Shown here: positions 2-57,489 of the stretch, in pieces | Numbering within the stretch: position 1 is the first letter of the stretch | How the letters are laid out: each line of letters opens with the position of its first letter | Assembly: GCA_964360975.1 (NCBI GenBank) | Contig: CAYHYY010000001.1 | Coordinates: forward strand, 959 to 64,958 | Reading direction: 5' to 3' | Length of the DNA stretch: 64,000 nt | Source: an uncultured Candidatus Saccharibacteria bacterium | GTDB lineage: Bacteria; Patescibacteriota; Minisyncoccia; Phycocordibacterales; Phycocordibacteraceae | Position numbers and translations under genes: made by a program | Notes under the pieces: generated by a model | What the model was told of the DNA's origin: nothing | What the model saw: only the letters and a program-made list of their open reading frames with translations | Database searches by the model: none

Positions 2-691
2 GCCCATGAGCATGCTGATCCTGTCGGCTTATATCTCAATGATTGTCTACGCTACCTCGAGGAAGGCGATATTGATCTCATATTTACCAAGCATGCCGTC
101 ATGACCTGCATTTCCGATACTTTTTACAATGACACGGATAGGGAGCTTCGTGAGAAGACGGTTTCGCGCGCAGGCTCTATCGTGGCTTTCGCGCCGAACC
201 CAGGTGACGTGGCAACCGTCGAGCGTGTTTTTTATCCCTACATTACCGCTGAAGAATTGGGAAAAGTGGAAGAAGGAGAATTTATCATTGCGCTCACCAT
301 CGATGCAATTCGTTCGCGGCCGTTTTTCGCGCGTGTCATTCCACTTTCCTCACGATCCAGTCTTTCAGAACAGGATTTGATGGGTGTCTCACGCGATCGA
401 TATACGCTGCCTCGACTCAAAGTTGATCAACTCTTTAAGTCGAGTGCCATGATTGGAAAAGAGATGCCCATGAAGGACGCGCCACCAGGAACATTTACTG
501 ATACGTTTCGCTCCATTTTTTCGAAGCGTTCCGGCGATCAGCCTCTCGCGAAAGGTGAACAGCAAAAAAAACAATCAATAAGTCCGTCCGATATGAAGAC
601 TACCCAAAAATCGGCGCAAACTGAGATACCCGAAAACGACCTGAAGACGATGCTTCGGGTTGACTCTGGCAAAGCGTTCGACAAGGAGTAA
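2..691 (+). CDS. Hypothetical protein, 5'-partial (the reading frame is open to the window start)
   Basis: The frame of ORF 101..691 stays open back to nt 2. No recognisable motif. The C-terminus is low-complexity and K/Q/S-rich. Confidence 0.35.
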   Translation, partial: AHEHADPVGLYLNDCLRYLEEGDIDLIFTKHAVMTCISDTFYNDTDRELREKTVSRAGSIVAFAPNPGDVATVERVFYPYITAEELGKVEEGEFIIALTIDAIRSRPFFARVIPLSSRSSLSEQDLMGVSRDRYTLPRLKVDQLFKSSAMIGKEMPMKDAPPGTFTDTFRSIFSKRSGDQPLAKGEQQKKQSISPSDMKTTQKSAQTEIPENDLKTMLRVDSGKAFDKE

Positions 692-708
692 GTGAGCATG
701 CGCCCTTT

Positions 709-27348: not shown

Positions 27349-28071
27349 ATGAACATCTATGCGGTGATCCTTGCCCGCGGTGGTTCAAAAGGGGTACCAC
27401 GGAAAAATGTCCTGCCGCTGAACGGAAAGCCGTTGATTGCGTGGACTATTGAGGCCGCAAAAAAAGTGCCGACGATTTCTAGGGTCGTGGTGAACACCGA
27501 TGATGATGAGATTGCTTCCGTCGCTGAATCGTACGGCGCGGAGATTTACATGCGCCCGAGTGAACTTGCAGGGGATGACACTCCCGATCTTCCGGTATTT
27601 GAGCAGTACCTAACGCGCCTCAAAGCGCAAGGCGAGTTGCCGGACATGATTGTCGATCTTCGTCCCACCGCGCCACTCCGCAGCGCGAAACGCATTGCTG
27701 AAGGGATTGAACTTTTATCCCGGATTGGCATTCTGAAAGCTGACTCGGTTCGAGCTGTTTCAAAAGCCGCGAAACATCCTTACAAGATGTGGAATCTCAA
27801 GGGTGAACACATCACCCCGTTTCTTTCGAAGTCCGTTACGGGGCTCAATGAGCCGTACAACGCTCCGCGACAAGTATTGCCACAGGTATATCAGAATAAT
27901 GGGTGCATGAATGCATTCTGGCCGGCAACAGTACTTGAGAAGCATTCGATGTCAGGCAACACTATCGCAGGTTTCGTTATGGATGATTGGGAGTCCGTTA
28001 ACATTGATACAAAGCTCGACTTCAAACTTGCCGAACTACTTATGAAAGAACACGAGAAGTTGTTTGCCTAA
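27349..28071 (+). CDS. CMP-nonulosonic-acid cytidylyltransferase (NeuA/PseF/LegF family)
   Basis: AVILARGGSKGVPRKNVLPLNGKPLI signature. Confidence 0.75.
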   Translation: MNIYAVILARGGSKGVPRKNVLPLNGKPLIAWTIEAAKKVPTISRVVVNTDDDEIASVAESYGAEIYMRPSELAGDDTPDLPVFEQYLTRLKAQGELPDMIVDLRPTAPLRSAKRIAEGIELLSRIGILKADSVRAVSKAAKHPYKMWNLKGEHITPFLSKSVTGLNEPYNAPRQVLPQVYQNNGCMNAFWPATVLEKHSMSGNTIAGFVMDDWESVNIDTKLDFKLAELLMKEHEKLFA

Positions 28072-28099
28072 TACGGTAGCGTGCGCGATACTGACCGCC

Positions 28100-29158
28100 A
28101 TGTCTGTTAAAGTAAAAATCATCGGAGCTGGCTCTATTGGAAATCATCTCGCGCAAGCGTCTCGGCGCATTGGGTGGGACGTTACCGTAGTGGATGCGAA
28201 CCGCGATGCGCTGAAGCGCATGAAGGACGATATCTATCCAACTAGATATGGAATGTGGGATTCACGCATTAAGCTCGCGCACATGAGTGAAGAACCGAAG
28301 GGTGGCTTCGACATCGTTATGATCGGGACGCCTCCCGACAGTCATCTCAAACTCGCGCTCGCCGCACTCCGCGAAAAACCGCGTGTGCTACAAATAGAGA
28401 AGCCGCTCTGCCCACCATGTGATCCGCTCCTCTCCCGATTCCTCGCAGCAGCAAAAAAGTCGCGAACGAAAATCATTGTTGGCTACGATCACACCGTAGG
28501 CGCGTCCATTGAATACGTCGCGTCGCATATACAGATGCTTGGGACTCCGCTTACCTTAGATGTCGAATTCCGTGAACACTGGCAAGGCATTTTCAAAGCG
28601 CACCCTTGGCTTTCTGGTCCATCAGATTCGTATTTGGGATACTGGAAGCGAGGCGGAGGAGCATCCGGGGAACACTCGCACGCACTCCATCTCTATCAAT
28701 ACCTAGCAAAAGAGATGGGGTTGGGGACCTGGAAGAAGGTCGTACCGCATCTGACGGTAGAGAAAGCAGCAGGAGGAGTGCAATACGATTCGGTGGCATC
28801 ATTCGGATTCGAGATGAGCAAGGGGCGATACGGACGTGTTATTCAAGATGTCATAACACTTCCAACGCGAAAGTGGGCGCGAGCGCAGGGATCCGATGGA
28901 TTCATCGAGTGGATCTGTGGTGGTTCGCCGAAAGGGGACATTGTCCGCCATGCGCTGAAGGGTAAAAAGCTAGAGGAGAAAGTGTTTGAGAAGACGCGCC
29001 CTGACGATTTCTTGAGAGAAGTAAAACACATTGATAAAATCCTGAAAGGCAAGCAAAGCGCCGCGACTTCCCCTATGTCTCTAGAGAGCGCGGTCGCGGT
29101 GATTCGTGTACTAGAGAAAACGTGGAAGAGTAAATCAAAGGTCGCGATTTCTTTGTAA
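28100..29158 (+). CDS. Gfo/Idh/MocA-family NAD(P) oxidoreductase
   Basis: VKIIGAGSIGNHLAQA Rossmann motif and family-typical length. The start was taken at ATG 28100. Confidence 0.6.
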   Translation: MSVKVKIIGAGSIGNHLAQASRRIGWDVTVVDANRDALKRMKDDIYPTRYGMWDSRIKLAHMSEEPKGGFDIVMIGTPPDSHLKLALAALREKPRVLQIEKPLCPPCDPLLSRFLAAAKKSRTKIIVGYDHTVGASIEYVASHIQMLGTPLTLDVEFREHWQGIFKAHPWLSGPSDSYLGYWKRGGGASGEHSHALHLYQYLAKEMGLGTWKKVVPHLTVEKAAGGVQYDSVASFGFEMSKGRYGRVIQDVITLPTRKWARAQGSDGFIEWICGGSPKGDIVRHALKGKKLEEKVFEKTRPDDFLREVKHIDKILKGKQSAATSPMSLESAVAVIRVLEKTWKSKSKVAISL

Positions 29159-29328
29159 AACAAGCCGCCCGTTCGACAGTCCCCCGGACTATCGAACACC
29201 CCGCCCCAAAGGGGACGGGGTATTGAGCGGGCGGCACCGGGGTGTTTTTCTAGGTAGAGAATCGGCCACCGCCGATACTGGTTTACCCTCAATCCCCGCG
29301 GCAAGCCGCGGGGATTGAAACCTAGTAA
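29159..29328. repeat. Copy A of a ~170 bp GC-rich multi-hairpin intergenic element that begins directly after a stop codon
   Basis: About 95% identical to 57303..57475. Hairpins: ttcgacagtcc/ggactatcgaa, caccccgcccc/ggggacggggtg, and ccccgcgg-caag-ccgcgggg. An enclosing stem gccgcccg/cgggcggc is followed by a T5 run. Confidence 0.7.
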
Positions 29329-29532
29329 ACTACCCCGCTACTACCATATATGGTAGTGATGCGGCCTCCGCCGAGATTCTCTTGACGGTACTCCGTCATA
29401 GAGAATCCAAGTGTGGTCGCCCTGCGCGAGCCACCGGGCGCGCGTGGCGACGATTCACCCCCGTGCCAGAGGCACGGGGCACTCTCGTCGTCCAGCCAGT
29501 AGAAATCTCAAGCCGGTGCGCTTGAGATTTGC
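29329..29532. other. Hairpin-dense non-coding stretch of at least five strong stem-loops between convergent genes. Possibly a structured RNA.
   Basis: Stem-loops ctacca-tata-tggtag, gattctct[tgacgg-tact-ccgtca]agagaatc, gtcgcc..ggcgac, ccccgtgcc-aga-ggcacgggg, and aaatctcaag-ccggtgcg-cttgagattt. No ORF. Confidence 0.35.
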
Positions 29533-30890
29533 ATTATCGTGTCGGCAATGTGCGAGCCCGCAGTTCCGAAATTAGGCAAATACGAATTCACCAGCGTTAC
29601 TCTCTTTTCAGCATTTTGTTCTGGGTCGTTCATGTAGCTCCCGATGATTGACCTGAACGTATCTTTGTCGTATGCAACATCAACGCCACCTGTTTCGAGA
29701 GCCTTTCGAATAAAAGAGAACGTGAAGAGTAACCTGATTACTGCGTCGTCGTTTTCTGCATGATCCAAACCAGACAGTCCCGTGTAAATCATCGGCTTGT
29801 TCAAAACTGCCGCGTCGAGCGCAAGTGAGGAGAAAATACTCAAATTGACGTCAGCAAAGTTGAGAAGATTCGCGACGTGATCTTTGTTTGGGAGTGTGTC
29901 TGCGGATTCTAGCAAGAGATTCGGGAACTCTTGCTGGAGAGATATATACGCCTCGGGAATACGTTGCGTTGGTCCAAACCGAACGAGGACCATGCTCTCA
30001 GGGATTCTCATCGCTTTGATGTCTTCAAGGAGCAGCTTCGTGACGTCCAACTGATGTGGGTGCCAATTGTCCGTTCCGACGAAATACGTGATGAGCTTCT
30101 TTTGAGGATCAGCGCCGATTGATTTGAAAAGTTCTTCACGGGTAGCGGATGGAGAAAACTTTGCGTAGGTATCGTATCGCTGACATCCCTCGACATGTAT
30201 CAGTTCTGCATTGATCGACTTAAGATCAACGAGTTCCTGCTTCATCAGGTCATTCCAGACAAAGATGTGTGCCTGCCGCGGCACCGAGTACAGGCGATTT
30301 TCAAAATAGTTCCATGGCAAGTCGACGACGAATACGGGAACTCGATGTTTTCTACCAACGGCAAGCCACGCGATATCGTGTGCATCATGAGAAAGTGTAC
30401 CCACCACAATACCGTCAGGAGAGTGCTCGCGAAGTAGTCCTTCGAACGATGGCTCTGAGATTGCATACTCCTCGAGGTAGTCAAATAGATTCACCAAAGT
30501 ACTTCGAAAAGGCCTGAGAAGCATGCGCAAGAATTTCATGACTCGATCCTTCGGGGGGAGAGAGCGAATCAGTGCGTTTGCGGTCGTGCTCATTTCAACC
30601 AATTTCGCGTGTTCGTGCTTTGCGGTATCAAGTGCCAATGCATGTTCACGGACCCGGCTCGTTTTTACTAATGACGCGGGCAGTGCGGGCAGTGCTTGGT
30701 GGACTACATTTTCGCCAGAAAACTCCTTCGTGAAGTCTTCATCATCCACAAATGGAGAAAGGATCACGATCTTCGACTTTGTTTTCAGAGACGAAAAAAT
30801 GTCTGAACGAAGAATGGCGTTCGTGCGGTACGCGGTCGGAATAATGAAAAAAAAGGTCTTCATGAAGCGGCGCGATTGTACCACGCTCAT
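29508..30890 (-). CDS. TagF/TagB-like GT-B fold protein, paralog 1 of 5 (putative polymer glycosyl- or glycerophospho-transferase)
   Basis: Shares with 33205, 36414, 48570 and 58828 an N-terminal ILxI..P motif, HSPDGIVVGT, WNYF, VEGCQRYD (GYPxxD-like), and C-terminal SSLALDAAVLNKPMIYTG. Confidence 0.45.
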   Translation of the reverse strand: MSVVQSRRFMKTFFFIIPTAYRTNAILRSDIFSSLKTKSKIVILSPFVDDEDFTKEFSGENVVHQALPALPASLVKTSRVREHALALDTAKHEHAKLVEMSTTANALIRSLPPKDRVMKFLRMLLRPFRSTLVNLFDYLEEYAISEPSFEGLLREHSPDGIVVGTLSHDAHDIAWLAVGRKHRVPVFVVDLPWNYFENRLYSVPRQAHIFVWNDLMKQELVDLKSINAELIHVEGCQRYDTYAKFSPSATREELFKSIGADPQKKLITYFVGTDNWHPHQLDVTKLLLEDIKAMRIPESMVLVRFGPTQRIPEAYISLQQEFPNLLLESADTLPNKDHVANLLNFADVNLSIFSSLALDAAVLNKPMIYTGLSGLDHAENDDAVIRLLFTFSFIRKALETGGVDVAYDKDTFRSIIGSYMNDPEQNAEKRVTLVNSYLPNFGTAGSHIADTIMQISSAPA

Positions 30891-53211: not shown

Positions 53212-53291
53212 AGTTGTTCCGCAAGCTCGTTCATGGTACAGTGCTGGCTGTGAGTGCTAGTAATTGCTAGCTCTTCGAAAATCTACATAAG

Positions 53292-53320
53292 ATCCCGCCT
53301 CGGCGGGATTTTGTGTTTTT
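53292..53320 (+). terminator. Rho-independent terminator after the Wzy_C/TPR gene
   Basis: atcccgcc-tc-ggcgggat hairpin followed by tttgtgttttt. Confidence 0.5.
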
Positions 53321-53466
53321 CTAGAAAAAGGAGGAGGTATTGCCGCTATCTGAAATCATAGTTACAGTGGTGGTGTTGCCCGCAGTGTGCGGCTGGCGGC
53401 GGCACTCACATAGATTTTTGCTTGGAGCTCGCACCCGTCGGTCGCACACTGAGGACAACGTCGTAT

Positions 53467-54686: not shown

Positions 54687-54761
54687 ATGGCAAAAAAGCG
54701 AAAGGCGAAAGCGGCAAAAAAGACGAAGACAAAGAAGCGAACTTCGAAGCGCCGCAAATAG
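54687..54761 (+). CDS. Candidate 24-aa lysine/arginine-rich peptide (MAKKRKAKAAKKTKTKKRTSKRRK). Speculative.
   Basis: A short ORF followed 10 nt later by a strong bidirectional terminator. No clear Shine-Dalgarno sequence. Confidence 0.2.
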   Translation: MAKKRKAKAAKKTKTKKRTSKRRK

Positions 54762-54771
54762 TTTCCGTAAG

Positions 54772-54808
54772 AAAAAAAGCTTCGATACATTCGAAGCTTT
54801 TTTCTTTT
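54772..54808. terminator. Bidirectional rho-independent terminator (A-run, agcttcga-tacat-tcgaagct, T-run)
   Basis: An 8 bp GC-containing stem flanked by A7 upstream and T7 downstream. Confidence 0.5.
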
Positions 54809-54833
54809 TATATCAGGCATCGCTCATGCAAAT

Positions 54834-57302
54834 GTGCTAGGATGCCTTACCATGCTTGGCTTCGGGAAGCTGTTTACATCGGCAAGCCCTCTCTTAGGGA
54901 AAGCACAAGAGGCAGTCCTCGCCGTTAATACTTTTGAGGCTGCCATGAAGGCGCGGTCACTTGATGAAATTAAGGCCTTAACGAGCGACTTTAAGGATCG
55001 CGTAGCCAAAGGAGAGCATCTTGACGACCTACTCCCTGAGGCGTTCGCGGCTGTGCGCGAAGCATCGCTTCGAACCCTTGGGGAACGACATTATGACGTG
55101 CAAATAATCGGTGGGTATGTACTCCATAACCACGCCATTGCCGAGATGCGCACTGGTGAAGGTAAAACGTTGGTCGCAACGCTCCCTGCTTATTTGAATG
55201 CACTCACCGAAAGAGGTGTCCACATTATTACGGTGAACGATTATCTCGCGAGACGCGATGCGGTATGGATGGGACAGATTTATGCCGCGCTCGGACTGAG
55301 CGTCGGCGTTATCAATCATGACGCATCGTATGCGTACGATCCGTCGCATTCAGAAAAAGATGAAGCGCGAGACACGCTCGGATCGTTTAAAGTCATGCAC
55401 GAATTTCTTCGTCCCGTGTCCAGAAAAGAATCATACGCTGCTGACATTACGTACGGCACGAATAACGAATTTGGATTTGACTACTTGCGAGATAATCTTG
55501 AATACGACGCAGTTAATCTCAGGCAACGCGATCACTACTACGCTATTGTCGATGAAGTAGACTCGATACTTATTGACGAGGCGCGCACCCCATTAATTAT
55601 TTCGGGTCCTGCAAAGGATCCTGAAGCGTTGTATCAGACGTTTGCAGCTATCGCGAAATCGCTCAAAGAAACTGAGGACTATACCGTTGATGAAAAGATG
55701 CGCGCCGTCATTATTACCGACTCTGGGGTAGAGAAGGCGGAGAAAGCACTTGGCATAGAAAATTTGTACGCTGAAGGCGGTGCAAAGATGGCGCACCACT
55801 TAGAGTCCGCAGTAAAGGCGAAGGCGCTTTTTATGCTCGACAAAGACTACGTTGTAAAGGATGGCCAGGTAGTCATCGTTGATGAATTTACGGGACGTTT
55901 GCAGCCGGGGCGTCGGTGGTCCGAAGGTTTGCATCAAGCCATTGAAGCGAAGGAAGGGGTAACCATACAAAAAGAGAGTCAGACTTACGCGTCGGTGACG
56001 TTCCAAAATTACTTCCGTATGTACGAGAAGATTGCAGGCATGACGGGAACGGGGGAGACCTCAGAGGAGGAATTCAGGACTGTGTATGGCTTGGATGTAG
56101 TCGCCATTCCAACGCATCGACCGACGGCGAGAGACGACCAACATGATCTTATATTCCAAAATGAATCGGGAAAATTCAGAGCGATAGCGAAAGCGGTTGC
56201 TGAGCGTCACGCGAAAGGGCAGCCGGTCTTAATTGGCACGACGTCGATTGAAGCAAATGAGCGTCTCGCGGCCGTTTTACGCGTCGCAGGCATTCCGCAC
56301 GAGGTCATGAATGCGAAGAATCATGAGCGAGAAGGGGAAATTATTGCGCAAGCCGGACGAAAAGGAGCAGTGACGGTTGCGACGAACATGGCGGGGCGAG
56401 GTGTGGACGTAAAACTCGGCGGCAATCCTGCGACCAAAGAAGCGTACGAAGCGGTGAAGAATCTGGGGGGGTTGTTTGTGGTGGGTACTGAGCGTCACGA
56501 TGCTCGGAGGATCGATAATCAGCTTCGCGGTCGCGCGGGTCGTCAGGGTGACCCCGGCGTTACACAATTCTTCGTATCGCTCGAAGATCGATTGATGCGC
56601 GTTTTTGCATCGGATATGGTGAAGAAAATGATGGGAAAACTGGGTATCCCAGAAGATGAACCCATTCAGAGCGGCATGGTTTCTCGTTCTTTGGAGTCTG
56701 CGCAGGAAAAGATTGAAGGAGTGAATTTTGATTCTCGGAAGCACGTTTTAGGATTTGATGATGTGTTGAATCACCAGCGCGCGGTGATATATAAGAAGCG
56801 GCATGCGGTTCTCACTGGTGGACCAGATGAAGTCATTGCTATGGCGCGCGAACACATGGATGCTGCGGGAGCGGACGGCAGCGTTCTCGACGCCAAGGAG
56901 CAAGCATTAGGTCGAGATGCATTCGTGATTGCGCTCAGGCGTCTTCTTTTGCAGGCATATGATATGTTCTGGATTGAGCATCTCGAGACGATGGATCACT
57001 TGAGAGGGTCGGTAAATCTCCGGTCGTATGGCGGCAGAGATCCATTCATTGAATATCGTCGTGAAGGATTACGTCTCTTCAGAAACCTCGAAGAGTCACT
57101 CTCAGTCTTTGTCGCAGAGTCCGTTCCCCGTGTCGTCCCCGCATCGTCCAATCCGCAAAAAACGGTGCGCCTCGTCGCACCTGTTGCCCAAAAACTTGGT
57201 CGCAATGATCACGTGAAGATAACGAACGGCACCGAGACACGCGAAATGAAGTACAAGAAGGCGGAAGCTCTGCTATCCCAAGGTTGGAAAATCGTGGAGT
57301 AA
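54834..57302 (+). CDS. secA: Preprotein translocase ATPase SecA
   Basis: MRTGEGKTLVATLPAYLNAL (Walker A), ITVNDYLARRD, HQAIEAKEGV, TNMAGRGVDVKLGG. The track start at 54834 is GTG; an internal ATG at 54852 is an alternative. Confidence 0.9.
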   Translation: MLGCLTMLGFGKLFTSASPLLGKAQEAVLAVNTFEAAMKARSLDEIKALTSDFKDRVAKGEHLDDLLPEAFAAVREASLRTLGERHYDVQIIGGYVLHNHAIAEMRTGEGKTLVATLPAYLNALTERGVHIITVNDYLARRDAVWMGQIYAALGLSVGVINHDASYAYDPSHSEKDEARDTLGSFKVMHEFLRPVSRKESYAADITYGTNNEFGFDYLRDNLEYDAVNLRQRDHYYAIVDEVDSILIDEARTPLIISGPAKDPEALYQTFAAIAKSLKETEDYTVDEKMRAVIITDSGVEKAEKALGIENLYAEGGAKMAHHLESAVKAKALFMLDKDYVVKDGQVVIVDEFTGRLQPGRRWSEGLHQAIEAKEGVTIQKESQTYASVTFQNYFRMYEKIAGMTGTGETSEEEFRTVYGLDVVAIPTHRPTARDDQHDLIFQNESGKFRAIAKAVAERHAKGQPVLIGTTSIEANERLAAVLRVAGIPHEVMNAKNHEREGEIIAQAGRKGAVTVATNMAGRGVDVKLGGNPATKEAYEAVKNLGGLFVVGTERHDARRIDNQLRGRAGRQGDPGVTQFFVSLEDRLMRVFASDMVKKMMGKLGIPEDEPIQSGMVSRSLESAQEKIEGVNFDSRKHVLGFDDVLNHQRAVIYKKRHAVLTGGPDEVIAMAREHMDAAGADGSVLDAKEQALGRDAFVIALRRLLLQAYDMFWIEHLETMDHLRGSVNLRSYGGRDPFIEYRREGLRLFRNLEESLSVFVAESVPRVVPASSNPQKTVRLVAPVAQKLGRNDHVKITNGTETREMKYKKAEALLSQGWKIVE

Positions 57303-57475
57303 AACAAGCCGCCCGTTCGACAGTCCCCCGGACTATCGAACACCCCGCCCCAAAGGGGACGGGGTGTTGAGCGGGCGGCACCGGGGTGTTTTTCTAGGCA
57401 GAGAATCGGCCGCCGCCGATACTGGTTTACCCTCAATGCCCCGCGGCATAGCCGCGGGGCATTGAAACCTAGTAA
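57303..57475. repeat. Copy B of the ~170 bp multi-hairpin element, directly after the secA stop codon
   Basis: About 95% identical to 29159..29328. The terminal hairpin carries compensatory changes on both arms (gccccgcgg-cata-gccgcggggc versus ccccgcgg-caag-ccgcgggg). Confidence 0.7.
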
Positions 57476-57489
57476 TATACAATAGATAT

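What the first reader, a model, noticed from the sequence alone, without database searches (positions are those of the whole stretch)
29329..29532. Unique hairpin-dense extension (at least five strong stem-loops, ~200 nt) between convergent genes. Possible structured ncRNA.
Immediately 3' of copy A, the 350 nt gap between the Gfo/Idh/MocA gene and the convergent TagF-like gene holds consecutive stable hairpins: ctacca-tata-tggtag; a nested gattctct[tgacgg-tact-ccgtca]agagaatc; a 12 bp gtcgcc...ggcgac stem; ccccgtgcc-aga-ggcacgggg; and aaatctcaag-ccggtgcg-cttgagattt. There is no ORF. A gap this large is exceptional in a window where most genes overlap. I looked for RNase P CR-I/CR-V, tmRNA and SRP motifs and did not find them, so the identity is open.
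Basis: seen in the sequence. Interest (0 to 1): 0.55.

Follow-up and report, generated by a model that had tools for sequence, protein, structure and literature searches.

The report
Mosaic hairpin repeats between convergent genes
The hairpin-packed stretch is real, but it is not a one-off RNA gene: it is the far end of a 350-base patchwork of reusable hairpin modules inserted between two genes of a groundwater Patescibacteria (CPR) bacterium, and one two-hairpin module in it is also kept, with compensating base changes, in other groundwater bacteria.

Summary
All five hairpins are present, and 29329-29532 folds far better than shuffled sequence (z -7.6 on +, -6.9 on -). The whole gap, 29155-29540, gives z -11.7.

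The claim that the stretch is unique is wrong.
- Bases 29333-29436 recur at 99% identity in another contig from the same aquifer (L014), in a different arrangement and partly in tandem.
- A spurious ORF (P0019) shows yet another arrangement of the same modules.
- The core module U (29370-29436, hairpins h2 and h3a) occurs twice each in two other contigs (L095, L097). Four of its base pairs change on both sides there. It is 98-100% identical between those two contigs, while their flanking genes are only 67% identical.

In the only syntenic relative (L004) the two convergent genes overlap, so the 349-nt gap is a lineage-specific insertion.

No Rfam family matches. The window holds no Cas, Tas/Nop, reverse transcriptase or transposase. 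Hairpins h1-h4 have no U-tails.

Best reading: a mosaic of dispersed palindromic intergenic repeat modules that works like REP/BIME or pneumococcal BOX elements. It sits next to a 180-nt repeat that supplies the upstream stop codon and looks like a terminator.

Module U may be a new conserved structured motif. The strand, any transcript and the means of spread are unknown.

The parts
28064..29158 (+). Gfo/Idh/MocA-type oxidoreductase gene, the last gene of a NeuB / CMP-sugar synthetase / oxidoreductase run. Its TAA stop (29156-29158) lies inside the repeat.
   Evidence: Pfam. 53% identical over its full length to the L004 orthologue.
29155..29251 (+). Module a of the 180-nt repeat. It runs GTAAAACAA (which includes the stop codon), then an 8-bp closing stem (29164-29171 with 29228-29235) enclosing two hairpins (29171-29197 and 29195-29224), then TGTTTTTCT (29243-29251). 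It looks like a bidirectional intrinsic terminator: A-tract, stem, T-tract.
   Evidence: Repeat. Fold z -9.1. Terminator-like hit on the - strand at 29179-29165. The tail GTGTTTTTCTAG is shared with the canonical terminator at 53290-53325.
29254..29292 (+). Module b: GTAG, then hairpin AGAATCGGC-CACC-GCCGATACT (29258-29279), then GGTTTACCCTCAAT. It contains the junction motif GGCC(N)CCGCCGA at which other modules are found inserted.
29289..29333 (+). Module c: a perfect 14-bp hairpin TCAATCCCCGCGGC-AA-GCCGCGGGGATTGA, then AAC-CTAGTAAACTAC. It looks like a CRISPR repeat (GTTT...ATTGAAAC). This is the end of the part shared with copy B.
   Evidence: Weak CRISPR-DR18 match, 27.5 bits against a gathering score of 50. 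Copy B carries a compensating G...C insertion in the stem.
29333..29361 (+). Module d: CCCCGC (a direct repeat of 29293-29298), hairpin h1 ACTACCATA/TATGGTAGT (29340-29357), then GATG.
   Evidence: Recurs in L014 at 661-699 (+) and inside 152-49 (-).
29352..29374 (+). Junction b': GGTAGTGATGCGGCCTCCGCCGA, a diverged duplicate (19 of 23 bases) of GGTAGAGAATCGGCCACCGCCGA in module b.
   Evidence: Local alignment score 26 against a shuffle mean of 16.6 (sd 2.4); 0 of 300 shuffles reach it.
29370..29436 (+). Module U, the conserved two-hairpin unit: GCCGA; h2 (29375-29407: GATTCTCT-TGACGG-TACT-CCGTCA-T-AGAGAATC); linker CAAGT; h3a (29413-29434: GTGG-TCGC-CCTGC-GCGA-G-CCAC); CG.
   Evidence: Copies in L014 (two, 66-nt period), L095/L096 (two) and L097/L098 (two, one with a nested inverted copy). 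In the alignment 96.5% of cells are paired and 4 pairs change on both sides. The covariance model finds only these copies.
29437..29502 (+).
   Evidence: No match in any held locus, phage or plasmid record.
29503..29530 (.). Hairpin h5, AAATCTCAAGC-CGGTGC-GCTTGAGATTT, a perfect 11-bp stem. It overlaps the last seven codons and the TGA stop (29508-29510) of the minus-strand gene and is preceded by an unpaired GTAG.
29508..30890 (-). TagF-like (Glyphos_transf-related) glycan gene, convergent with the oxidoreductase.
   Evidence: Homologues carry PF04464. Weak NCBIfam hits. C-terminal alignment.
57299..57480 (+). Copy B of the a-b-c repeat, between SecA and a holin-family gene. It starts at SecA's TAA stop and has no extension.

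Best explanation
29329-29532 is the distal part of a composite of dispersed, modular, hairpin-forming intergenic repeats. This is a mosaic element of the REP/BIME or BOX kind. It has accumulated between two convergent glycan-synthesis genes of a groundwater Patescibacteria (CPR) bacterium.

The composite is a-b-c | d-b' | U | f-h5.
- The proximal 180-nt element (a-b-c) supplies the upstream gene's stop codon and a terminator-like domain.
- The following modules (h1; the two-hairpin unit U; h4/h5) are extra cassettes. They are joined at short recurring motifs: CCCCGC and GGCC(N)CCGCCGA.

Shown:
- The hairpins exist.
- The modules recur elsewhere in other orders and orientations.
- The gap is absent from the syntenic relative.
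- U keeps its pairing through compensatory changes and is more conserved than the neighbouring genes.

Inferred:
- The modules spread by a non-autonomous route. Candidates are transposition by an enzyme that recognises hairpins and is encoded elsewhere, or recombination or template switching at the junction motifs.
- Once in place they are carried in the 3' untranslated RNA of the flanking genes. Most likely this is the minus-strand TagF-like transcript, which would read through h5, h4 and U and stop at module a.
- There the stem-loops would block 3' exonucleases and insulate the convergent genes.
For: - Structure: z -7.6, -6.9 and -11.7.
- Repeat a-b-c: two copies in the window at 97% identity. 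Further copies with other flanks or missing modules are in L009 and L014. Contigs L001, L008 and L010 all break at the same base inside module a, as expected at a multicopy repeat.
- Extension not unique: 29333-29436 is 99% identical to L014 152-49, with U in tandem there. P0019 encodes a fourth arrangement, a(short)-b-U-x-b.
- Internal duplication of module b inside the extension.
- Lineage-specific insertion: in L004 the orthologous genes (53% and 42% identity) overlap by 11 nt.
- U in other organisms: two copies each in L095 and L097, one with a nested inverted copy. Four pairs change on both sides and 96.5% of cells are paired. U1 is 72/73 identical and the h2 part of U2 is 52/52 identical between L095 and L097, whose coding DNA is 67% identical.
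- The TAA of GTAAAAC is the in-frame stop of the upstream ORF in three copies.
- No known RNA family, tRNA, Cas, Nop/Tas, reverse transcriptase or transposase in the window.
- Published REPs lie mostly downstream of genes and between convergent ORFs, often in opposite orientations (PMC3733652). BOX elements are structured, co-transcribed with neighbouring genes and can form spurious ORFs (PMC3049150).
Against: - Copy number is known only from five or six sightings in fragmentary assemblies. The genome is not available, so 'dispersed, high copy' is not established.
- No transposase of any kind is in the 64 kb window, and the mobilising mechanism is pure inference.
- Module f (29437-29502) was found nowhere else.
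- U's near-identity at an orthologous site in two organisms with 67% coding identity looks more like a selected function than a selfish repeat.
- Substitutions that would leave a wobble pair on only one strand point to both strands, so they give no support for an RNA on a given strand.
- L014 has only about 2x coverage, so some of its arrangements could be assembly errors.
- No expression data were available.
Confidence: 0.55

Rival explanations
1. Module U (29370-29436) is a genuine, previously undescribed structured RNA motif of Patescibacteria: a small RNA, a protein-binding site or a cis-regulatory element. It would work as two adjacent hairpins with conserved loop and linker sequences. 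The rest of the gap would be incidental repeat material around it.
For: - Compensatory changes in 4 of 23 pairs, 96.5% of cells paired, and every slid-register control far lower.
- The blocks ACGGTAC, AATCCAAGTGTGGTCG and CGAGCCACCG are invariant.
- 98-100% identity between L095 and L097 against 67% for their genes. Conservation there extends to the start codon of a neighbouring T4SS-pilin-family gene.
- No Rfam family matches.
Against: - Only three lineages are known, so there are few independent substitution events.
- The context is inconsistent: between pilin genes in L095 and L097, between convergent glycan genes here, and in a long non-coding tract in L014.
- It occurs in tandem, in inverted nested copies and inside other modules, which is repeat-like behaviour.
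- Which strand is used is undetermined.
- No promoter or terminator brackets it in the window.
Confidence: 0.25
2. The gap is only the sum of the transcription terminators of the two convergent genes.
For: - Module a has an A-tract, a long GC stem and a T-tract, and scores as terminator-like on the minus strand.
- h5 overlaps the stop codon of the minus-strand gene.
Against: - h1-h4 are not followed by a U-run on either strand.
- This genome's clear terminators are single hairpins with long T-tracts.
- About 250 nt of extra hairpins, which recur elsewhere as modules, are not needed for termination.
- The relative manages with overlapping genes.
Confidence: 0.07
3. It is a degenerate guide-RNA array: either a decayed CRISPR array seeded by the CRISPR-like repeat at 29281-29321, or a TIGR-type stem-loop array.
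For: - Module c has GTTT...ATTGAAAC ends and a weak CRISPR-DR18 match at E 0.018 in a 701-nt search.
- TIGR-Tas systems occur in CPR bacteria. Some have tandem arrays of variable palindromic stem-loops (PMC12045711).
Against: - Only one CRISPR-like unit is present per copy, and the later hairpins are unrelated in sequence.
- The whole-window Rfam scan gives nothing at E up to 0.1.
- No Cas or Nop-domain protein is among about 57 ORFs.
Confidence: 0.03
4. It is a decayed protein-coding remnant or encodes a small protein.
For: One + frame is open from 29142 to 29522 except for a single stop codon. Mechanical ORFs of 47 and 54 aa exist.
Against: - The translation is Arg/Pro/Gly-rich and of low complexity.
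- An exhaustive search of 1.84 billion proteins found only spurious ORFs laid over other copies of the modules and biased long proteins.
- Both flanking proteins are full length compared with their homologues.
Confidence: 0.03

Closest known systems
REP sequences and BIMEs (bacterial interspersed mosaic elements) of proteobacteria
   Same: - Short, GC-rich, near-perfect palindromes clustered in mosaics.
- Extragenic, just downstream of genes and between convergent genes.
- Units occur in both orientations and as nested or inverted pairs.
- Stems are kept by compensatory change.
- An unpaired GTAG sits directly 5' of three stems (29254, 29353, 29499).
   Different: - No sequence similarity to any described REP family.
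- The GTAG or CGTC tag is not consistent.
- Units are longer and heterogeneous (28-180 nt).
- No RAYT or any Y1 transposase was seen.
- The host is a Patescibacteria (CPR) bacterium, a phylum not named among REP hosts in the abstract of the survey read (PMC3733652).
- Copy number is unknown.
BOX elements of Streptococcus pneumoniae
   Same: - Modular build, with variable numbers and orders of sub-modules.
- Extensive predicted RNA structure.
- Intergenic position, co-transcribed with neighbouring genes.
- Large copies create spurious ORFs (PMC3049150); that is how the extra copies were found here.
   Different: - Unrelated sequence.
- No fixed set of terminal modules: module a is truncated or missing in some copies (L009, P0019, the minus-strand run of L014).
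- Module a supplies the upstream stop codon.
Rho-independent (intrinsic) terminators
   Same: Module a has an A-tract, a GC stem and a T-tract, and it follows the stop codon directly. h5 overlaps the other gene's stop codon.
   Different: The extension's hairpins h1-h4 have no U-tract. Bona fide terminators in this window are single hairpins (53290-53325, 54771-54812).
TIGR-Tas stem-loop arrays (PMC12045711)
   Same: Tandem, variable palindromic stem-loops in non-coding DNA; known from CPR bacteria and their phages.
   Different: - No Tas (Nop-domain) gene.
- No regular unit.
- No box C or box D motifs flanking 8-12 nt spacers.
- The hairpins here have small loops and are nearly contiguous.
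CRISPR repeats
   Same: Module c has the GTTT...ATTGAAAC ends and a central GC stem of many type I/III repeats.
   Different: It is a solitary unit embedded in a dispersed 180-nt repeat, 41-44 nt long with a 14-bp stem. There are no spacers and no cas genes, and it scores below the Rfam threshold.

Membership tests
REP / BIME | Short (about 20-40 bp) imperfect palindromes able to form stem-loops | tested here: met
   The hairpin in module b, h1, h2, h3a, h4 and h5 are 18-43 nt palindromes.
REP / BIME | Extragenic, mostly downstream of genes and between unidirectional or convergent ORFs | tested here: met
   Between convergent genes here, between co-directional genes at copy B and in L097. Criterion taken from PMC3733652.
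REP / BIME | Many dispersed copies per genome | tested here: inconclusive
   Two copies of a-b-c in 64 kb, plus L009, L014 and P0019. U is seen about four times in this population. The genome is not available: genome and metagenome scans gave 0 and 1 hit.
REP / BIME | Unpaired GTAG or CGTC tag at one end of the palindrome | tested here: inconclusive
   GTAG lies directly 5' of the stems at 29258 and 29503, and five bases (TGATG) before the weak 4-bp stem of junction b' near 29353. It is not found at h2, h3a or h4. Two of the three sites are duplicates of each other.
REP / BIME | Cognate RAYT (Y1 tyrosine transposase) in the genome | not testable with these tools
   None among about 57 ORFs of the window. 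The rest of the genome could not be obtained.
REP / BIME | Units clustered in alternating orientation within mosaics | tested here: met
   An inverted h2 copy is nested in U2 of L097. L014 carries modules in both orientations.
BOX-type modular repeat | Composite of sub-modules whose number and order vary between copies | tested here: met
   Five arrangements were seen: a-b-c; a-b-c-d-b'-U-f; a-b-d-b'-x-b-c; b-d-b'-U-U; and a(short)-b-U-x-b.
BOX-type modular repeat | Sequence homology to pneumococcal boxA, boxB or boxC | not tested
   No BOX sequences were available to compare. This is a resemblance of kind only.
Any Rfam RNA family | Covariance-model score at or above the family's gathering threshold | tested here: not met
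   0 matches in the window at gathering thresholds and at E up to 0.1. The best local hit is CRISPR-DR18 at 27.5 bits against 50. Nothing for L097 or L014.
CRISPR array | Several near-identical direct repeats regularly spaced by unique spacers, usually with cas genes nearby | tested here: not met
   One CRISPR-like unit per copy, and no direct-repeat family within the gap. No cas genes.
TIGR-Tas | Adjacent Tas protein with a Nop domain | tested here: not met
   No Nop domain in any ORF of the window by Pfam or NCBIfam. The 518-aa unknown protein has no PDB relative.
TIGR-Tas | [quoted passage not shown] | tested here: not met
   The spacing between hairpins is 17, 8, 7 and 23 nt, so there is no room for dual spacers, and there is no periodic unit.
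Intrinsic terminator | GC-rich stem-loop followed directly by a U-tract | tested here: not met
   The scan finds none within 29329-29532 on either strand. The only hit in the gap is module a on the minus strand.

The most novel reading that the evidence does not exclude
Module U (GCCGA, h2, CAAGT, h3a, CGC; window 29370-29436) is a new, selectively maintained two-hairpin RNA or single-stranded-DNA motif of Patescibacteria. It would be recognised by a dedicated protein, for example a hairpin-specific transposase or recombinase, or an RNA-binding regulator of pilin or cell-surface genes. The mosaic tracts would then be its proliferating arrays. That would make it a first repeat-plus-enzyme system of the REP/RAYT kind, or a first family-specific regulatory RNA, in these ultra-small genomes.
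Probability: 0.2. Interest if true: 0.6.

Novelty: new member of a known kind. Interest (0 to 1): 0.38.

Why it matters
Patescibacteria (CPR) genomes are about 1 Mb and tightly packed, and in this window most genes abut or overlap. A 350-nt tract of reusable hairpin cassettes therefore stands out.

The tract starts at the upstream gene's stop codon. It includes a two-hairpin unit that is better conserved than the neighbouring proteins. This suggests either an active, unrecognised way of spreading small repeats in these organisms, or a structured element with a real role in the 3' ends of messenger RNAs.

In practice:
- Such tracts break short-read assemblies. Three contigs end at the same base of module a.
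- They generate spurious ORFs in protein databases.
- Module U is a concrete, testable candidate for a new RNA motif family.

Tried and rejected
- Known RNA. Rfam over the whole window at gathering thresholds and at E up to 0.1, and locally at E up to 10 on the gap, L097 and L014, gave nothing credible. ARAGORN found no tRNA or tmRNA.
- Public DNA scans.
  - The 3' end of the repeat in GTDB genomes gave 0 hits.
  - The h2 pattern in the metagenome collection gave 0 hits.
  - The module b/c pattern there gave one hit, L014, which proved decisive.
  - Seven viral-contig scans gave only chance or unrelated hits: L005/L006, L012/L013 and L099-L107, the last set rejected by the covariance model.
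  - blastn against phage and plasmid records gave no match.
- Relatives. The second GTDB scan used SecA. The nearest genomes are only 59-64% identical (Paceibacterota and Kaiserbacteria MAGs). nhmmer and the U model found no module in 1.44 Mb of their DNA, so no close relative exists for covariation at this locus.
- A concatenated six-frame translation of the extension, used as a protein query, returned nothing. The word prefilter was swamped. The exhaustive single-frame search and a short profile did work.
- Strand inference failed. I looked for substitutions that leave a G-U pair on only one strand. Two C-to-T changes favour the + strand (L009, L014 copy C). One G-to-A in L014 and one T-to-C in L097 favour the - strand. 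No conclusion is possible.
- MITE reading rejected: no terminal inverted repeats at the ends of a-b-c, and the flanking GTAA could be a target duplication or part of the element.
- CRISPR, TIGR-Tas, terminators only, pseudogene and assembly artefact are rejected as given under the rival explanations.
- The 29-nt similarity between 29512-29540 and 12279-12307 is at chance level for a 12-mer seed in 64 kb.

Full report
**Observation**

- As RNA it folds to -105.9 kcal/mol on the + strand (z -7.6) and -109.6 kcal/mol on the - strand (z -6.9). No shuffle of 200 does as well.
- The whole non-coding tract with its flanking repeat (29155-29540) gives z -11.7.
- In a GC-corrected scan of 100-nt windows, this gap, the second repeat copy at 57.3 kb and one further intergenic region (53.2-53.4 kb) are the most structured places in the 64 kb.
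- An independent contig from another sample (L001) is identical over 29167-29560, so the arrangement is not an assembly artefact.

- The last hairpin (29503-29530) is not intergenic. It encodes the last seven residues and the TGA stop (29508-29510) of the minus-strand gene. The true gap is 29159-29507, 349 nt.
- The '12 bp' stem has one mismatch and one G-T pair. It competes with a smaller hairpin, h3a, which is the one conserved elsewhere.

**Setting**

- The window comes from a groundwater bacterium of the Hainich aquifer. Identical contigs are named Hain_H52 and Hain_H51.
- Its SecA is at most 59-64% identical to any species representative. The nearest are Paceibacterota and Kaiserbacteria MAGs, so this is a Patescibacteria (CPR) organism with no close sequenced relative.
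- Nearly all of the window is a glycan-synthesis cluster plus MurB, SecA and Obg.
- No transposase, Cas, reverse transcriptase or Nop-domain protein is among about 57 ORFs.
- The gap lies between a Gfo/Idh/MocA oxidoreductase (+) and a TagF-like transferase (-).
- In the only syntenic relative found (L004; 53% and 42% protein identity; same NeuB / cytidylyltransferase / oxidoreductase order) the two genes overlap by 11 nt. The 349 nt are therefore a lineage-specific insertion, not a conserved feature of this locus.

**The neighbouring repeat**

- 29155-29333 is 97% identical to 57299-57480, which follows SecA.
- Both copies begin GTAAAACAAGCC, and the TAA is the upstream gene's stop codon. The same holds for a third copy with a different upstream ORF (L009).
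- The first domain (module a) is an A-tract, a long GC stem enclosing two hairpins, and TGTTTTTCT. It scores as terminator-like on the minus strand, and its tail matches the tail of a canonical terminator at 53290-53325.
- The last hairpin (module c) looks like a CRISPR repeat but scores only 27.5 bits against a threshold of 50. Between copies A and B it differs by a compensating G...C insertion.
- Three contigs (L001, L008, L010) end at the same base inside module a, as expected at a multicopy repeat.

**The extension is not unique**

- A pattern from modules b and c found one metagenome contig, L014, from well H51.
- L014 152-49 (minus strand) is 99% identical to window 29333-29436, which covers h1, the junction, h2 and the 5' half of the long stem. 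There it joins module b directly, without module c, and its last 51 bases recur as a 66-nt tandem repeat.
- On its other strand L014 carries a further a-b copy. In that copy h1 and the junction, plus a 26-nt piece (x), sit between two copies of module b's 3' part, ahead of module c.
- L014's 520-nt non-coding tract is itself dense in hairpins (z -7.7).
- The extension begins with a diverged duplicate (19 of 23 bases) of a segment of module b.
- The open + frame of the extension, searched against 1.84 billion proteins, hit two spurious ORFs. P0019, from a 5186-nt NCBI contig, spells out a fourth arrangement: a without its first domain, b, U, x, b.
- Modules join at the recurring short motifs CCCCGC and GGCC(N)CCGCCGA.
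- Only 29437-29502 (module f, with h4) has been seen nowhere else.

**A conserved core**

- The other spurious ORF, P0022, and a third one, P0023, led to DNA from two other organisms: L095/L096 (a groundwater metagenome) and L097/L098.
- Each holds two copies of a 66-73 nt unit, U, which is homologous to window 29370-29436: GCCGA, h2, a linker CAAGT, a second hairpin h3a, then CGC.
- On the five-sequence alignment 96.5% of cells pair and 4 of 23 pairs change on both sides. In h2, GATTCTCT/AGAGAATC becomes GATTTACT/AGTAAATC and TGACGG/CCGTCA becomes TCACGG/CCGTGG. In h3a, C-G becomes U-A. Every slid-register control drops to about 40% paired.
- The blocks ACGGTAC, AATCCAAGTGTGGTCG and CGAGCCACCG are invariant.
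- Between L095 and L097 the coding DNA is 67% identical. In contrast U1 is 72/73 identical and the h2 part of U2 is 52/52, while the middle of the spacer between them cannot be aligned.
- In L097 a diverged, inverted h2 copy is nested in U2, exactly at the linker.
- In both organisms U lies between T4SS-pilin-family genes, on the strand opposite to them.
- A covariance model of U found no further copy in the window, in 0.5 Mb of CPR loci or in nine viral contigs that share its 16-mer. Rfam has nothing like it.

**Interpretation**

It is not one ncRNA gene. The evidence:
- the modules recur in shuffled, truncated, tandem and inverted forms;
- they are joined at short recurrent motifs;
- the tract is absent from the syntenic relative;
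- it sits downstream of genes and between convergent ORFs.

This is the behaviour described for REP/BIME elements (PMC3733652) and for modular BOX elements, which are structured, co-transcribed with neighbouring genes and prone to spurious ORFs (PMC3049150).

By inference, the tract is carried in 3' untranslated RNA. On the minus strand, a transcript of the TagF-like gene would read through h5, h4 and U and reach the good terminator formed by module a (stem followed by UUGUUUUAC). This is the same orientation of U relative to the upstream gene as in L095 and L097. The stem-loops would then act as 3' protective and insulating structures. How the modules spread is unknown. An unpaired GTAG precedes three stems, which hints at a REP-like system, but two of those three sites are duplicates of each other and no Y1 transposase is in view.

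**Rivals**

- The strongest rival is that U is a functional, selected structured motif in its own right. Its covariation and its conservation far above the flanking genes argue for this. Its inconsistent context, its nested and tandem copies and the few lineages known argue against. The two readings are not exclusive, because REPs are also maintained.
- 'Only two convergent terminators' fails because h1-h4 have no U-tract, while this genome's real terminators are simple.
- CRISPR and TIGR-Tas readings fail on repeat structure, spacing and the absence of the proteins.
- A coding remnant fails on homology and on the full length of both flanking proteins.

**Limits**

- The genome outside the window, any transcript data and close relatives were not available.
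- Copy number rests on five or six sightings in low-coverage assemblies.
- Which strand is used is unresolved. Substitutions that would leave a wobble pair on only one strand point both ways.

**Verdict**

This is a real, strongly structured feature. It is a new family of a known kind, mosaic intergenic palindromic repeats, found in a phylum where such elements appear to be little described (the one literature search run here, turned up none). It contains a two-hairpin module that deserves follow-up as a candidate new motif. Interest is moderate.

Noticed in passing
window 57299-57480: Second copy of the 180-nt a-b-c repeat, directly after SecA's stop codon and 10 nt before a holin-family gene. 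Relative to copy A it has a compensating G...C insertion in the CRISPR-like hairpin.
   Followed up: yes
window 29281-29321 and 57425-57468: A solitary hairpin that looks like a CRISPR repeat (GTTTACCC...ATTGAAAC, 14-bp stem) embedded in a dispersed repeat. It gives only a weak CRISPR-DR18 match, and the window has no array or cas genes.
   Followed up: partly
window 54687-54761: A tiny Lys/Arg-rich ORF (MAKKRKAKAAKKTKTKKRTSKRRK), followed by a textbook bidirectional terminator at about 54771-54812, just upstream of SecA.
   Followed up: no
window 53290-53325: A canonical intrinsic terminator (GATCCCGCC-TCG-GGCGGGATC followed by TTTTGTGTTTTTCTAG). Its tail is the same 12-mer as in module a of the repeat. 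The surrounding gap, 53212-53421, is the third most structured region of the window.
   Followed up: partly
window 1-53211 and 58828-62819: A very large glycan and nonulosonic-acid cluster. It has two NeuB genes (one fused to a cupin), two CMP-sugar synthetases, three TagF-like transferases, two AsnB-like amidotransferases, many GT4 glycosyltransferases, methyltransferases and a Wzy-TPR protein. This is a large share of what is presumably a small genome.
   Followed up: partly
L014 340-371, 420-444 and 499-523: A perfect 14-bp palindrome (CTATCCATTAGCTA/TAGCTAATGGATAG) followed by the same TAAACTACCCCG 12-mer as window 29326-29337. Two 25-nt direct repeats lie 79 nt apart, just upstream of a repeat copy.
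   Followed up: no
L097 733-790 (also L098 2009-2066): An inverted, diverged copy of hairpin h2 is nested inside a U unit, exactly at its linker. It has its own compensatory stem changes (ATTTCACT/AGTGAAAT and CGACGG/CCGTCG).
   Followed up: partly
L095 1-300 against L097 474-740: The intergenic DNA that holds the U units, together with the leader of a T4SS-pilin-family gene, is far more conserved (U1 72/73, the h2 part of U2 52/52) than the adjacent coding DNA (67%).
   Followed up: partly
L009 64-227: A repeat copy with a different upstream ORF. It lacks the first inner hairpin (window 29172-29197), so even sub-hairpins of module a are optional.
   Followed up: partly
L001, L008 and L010 contig ends (equivalent to window 29167): Three independent short-read contigs stop at the same base inside module a. 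The repeat family fragments assemblies of this population.
   Followed up: no
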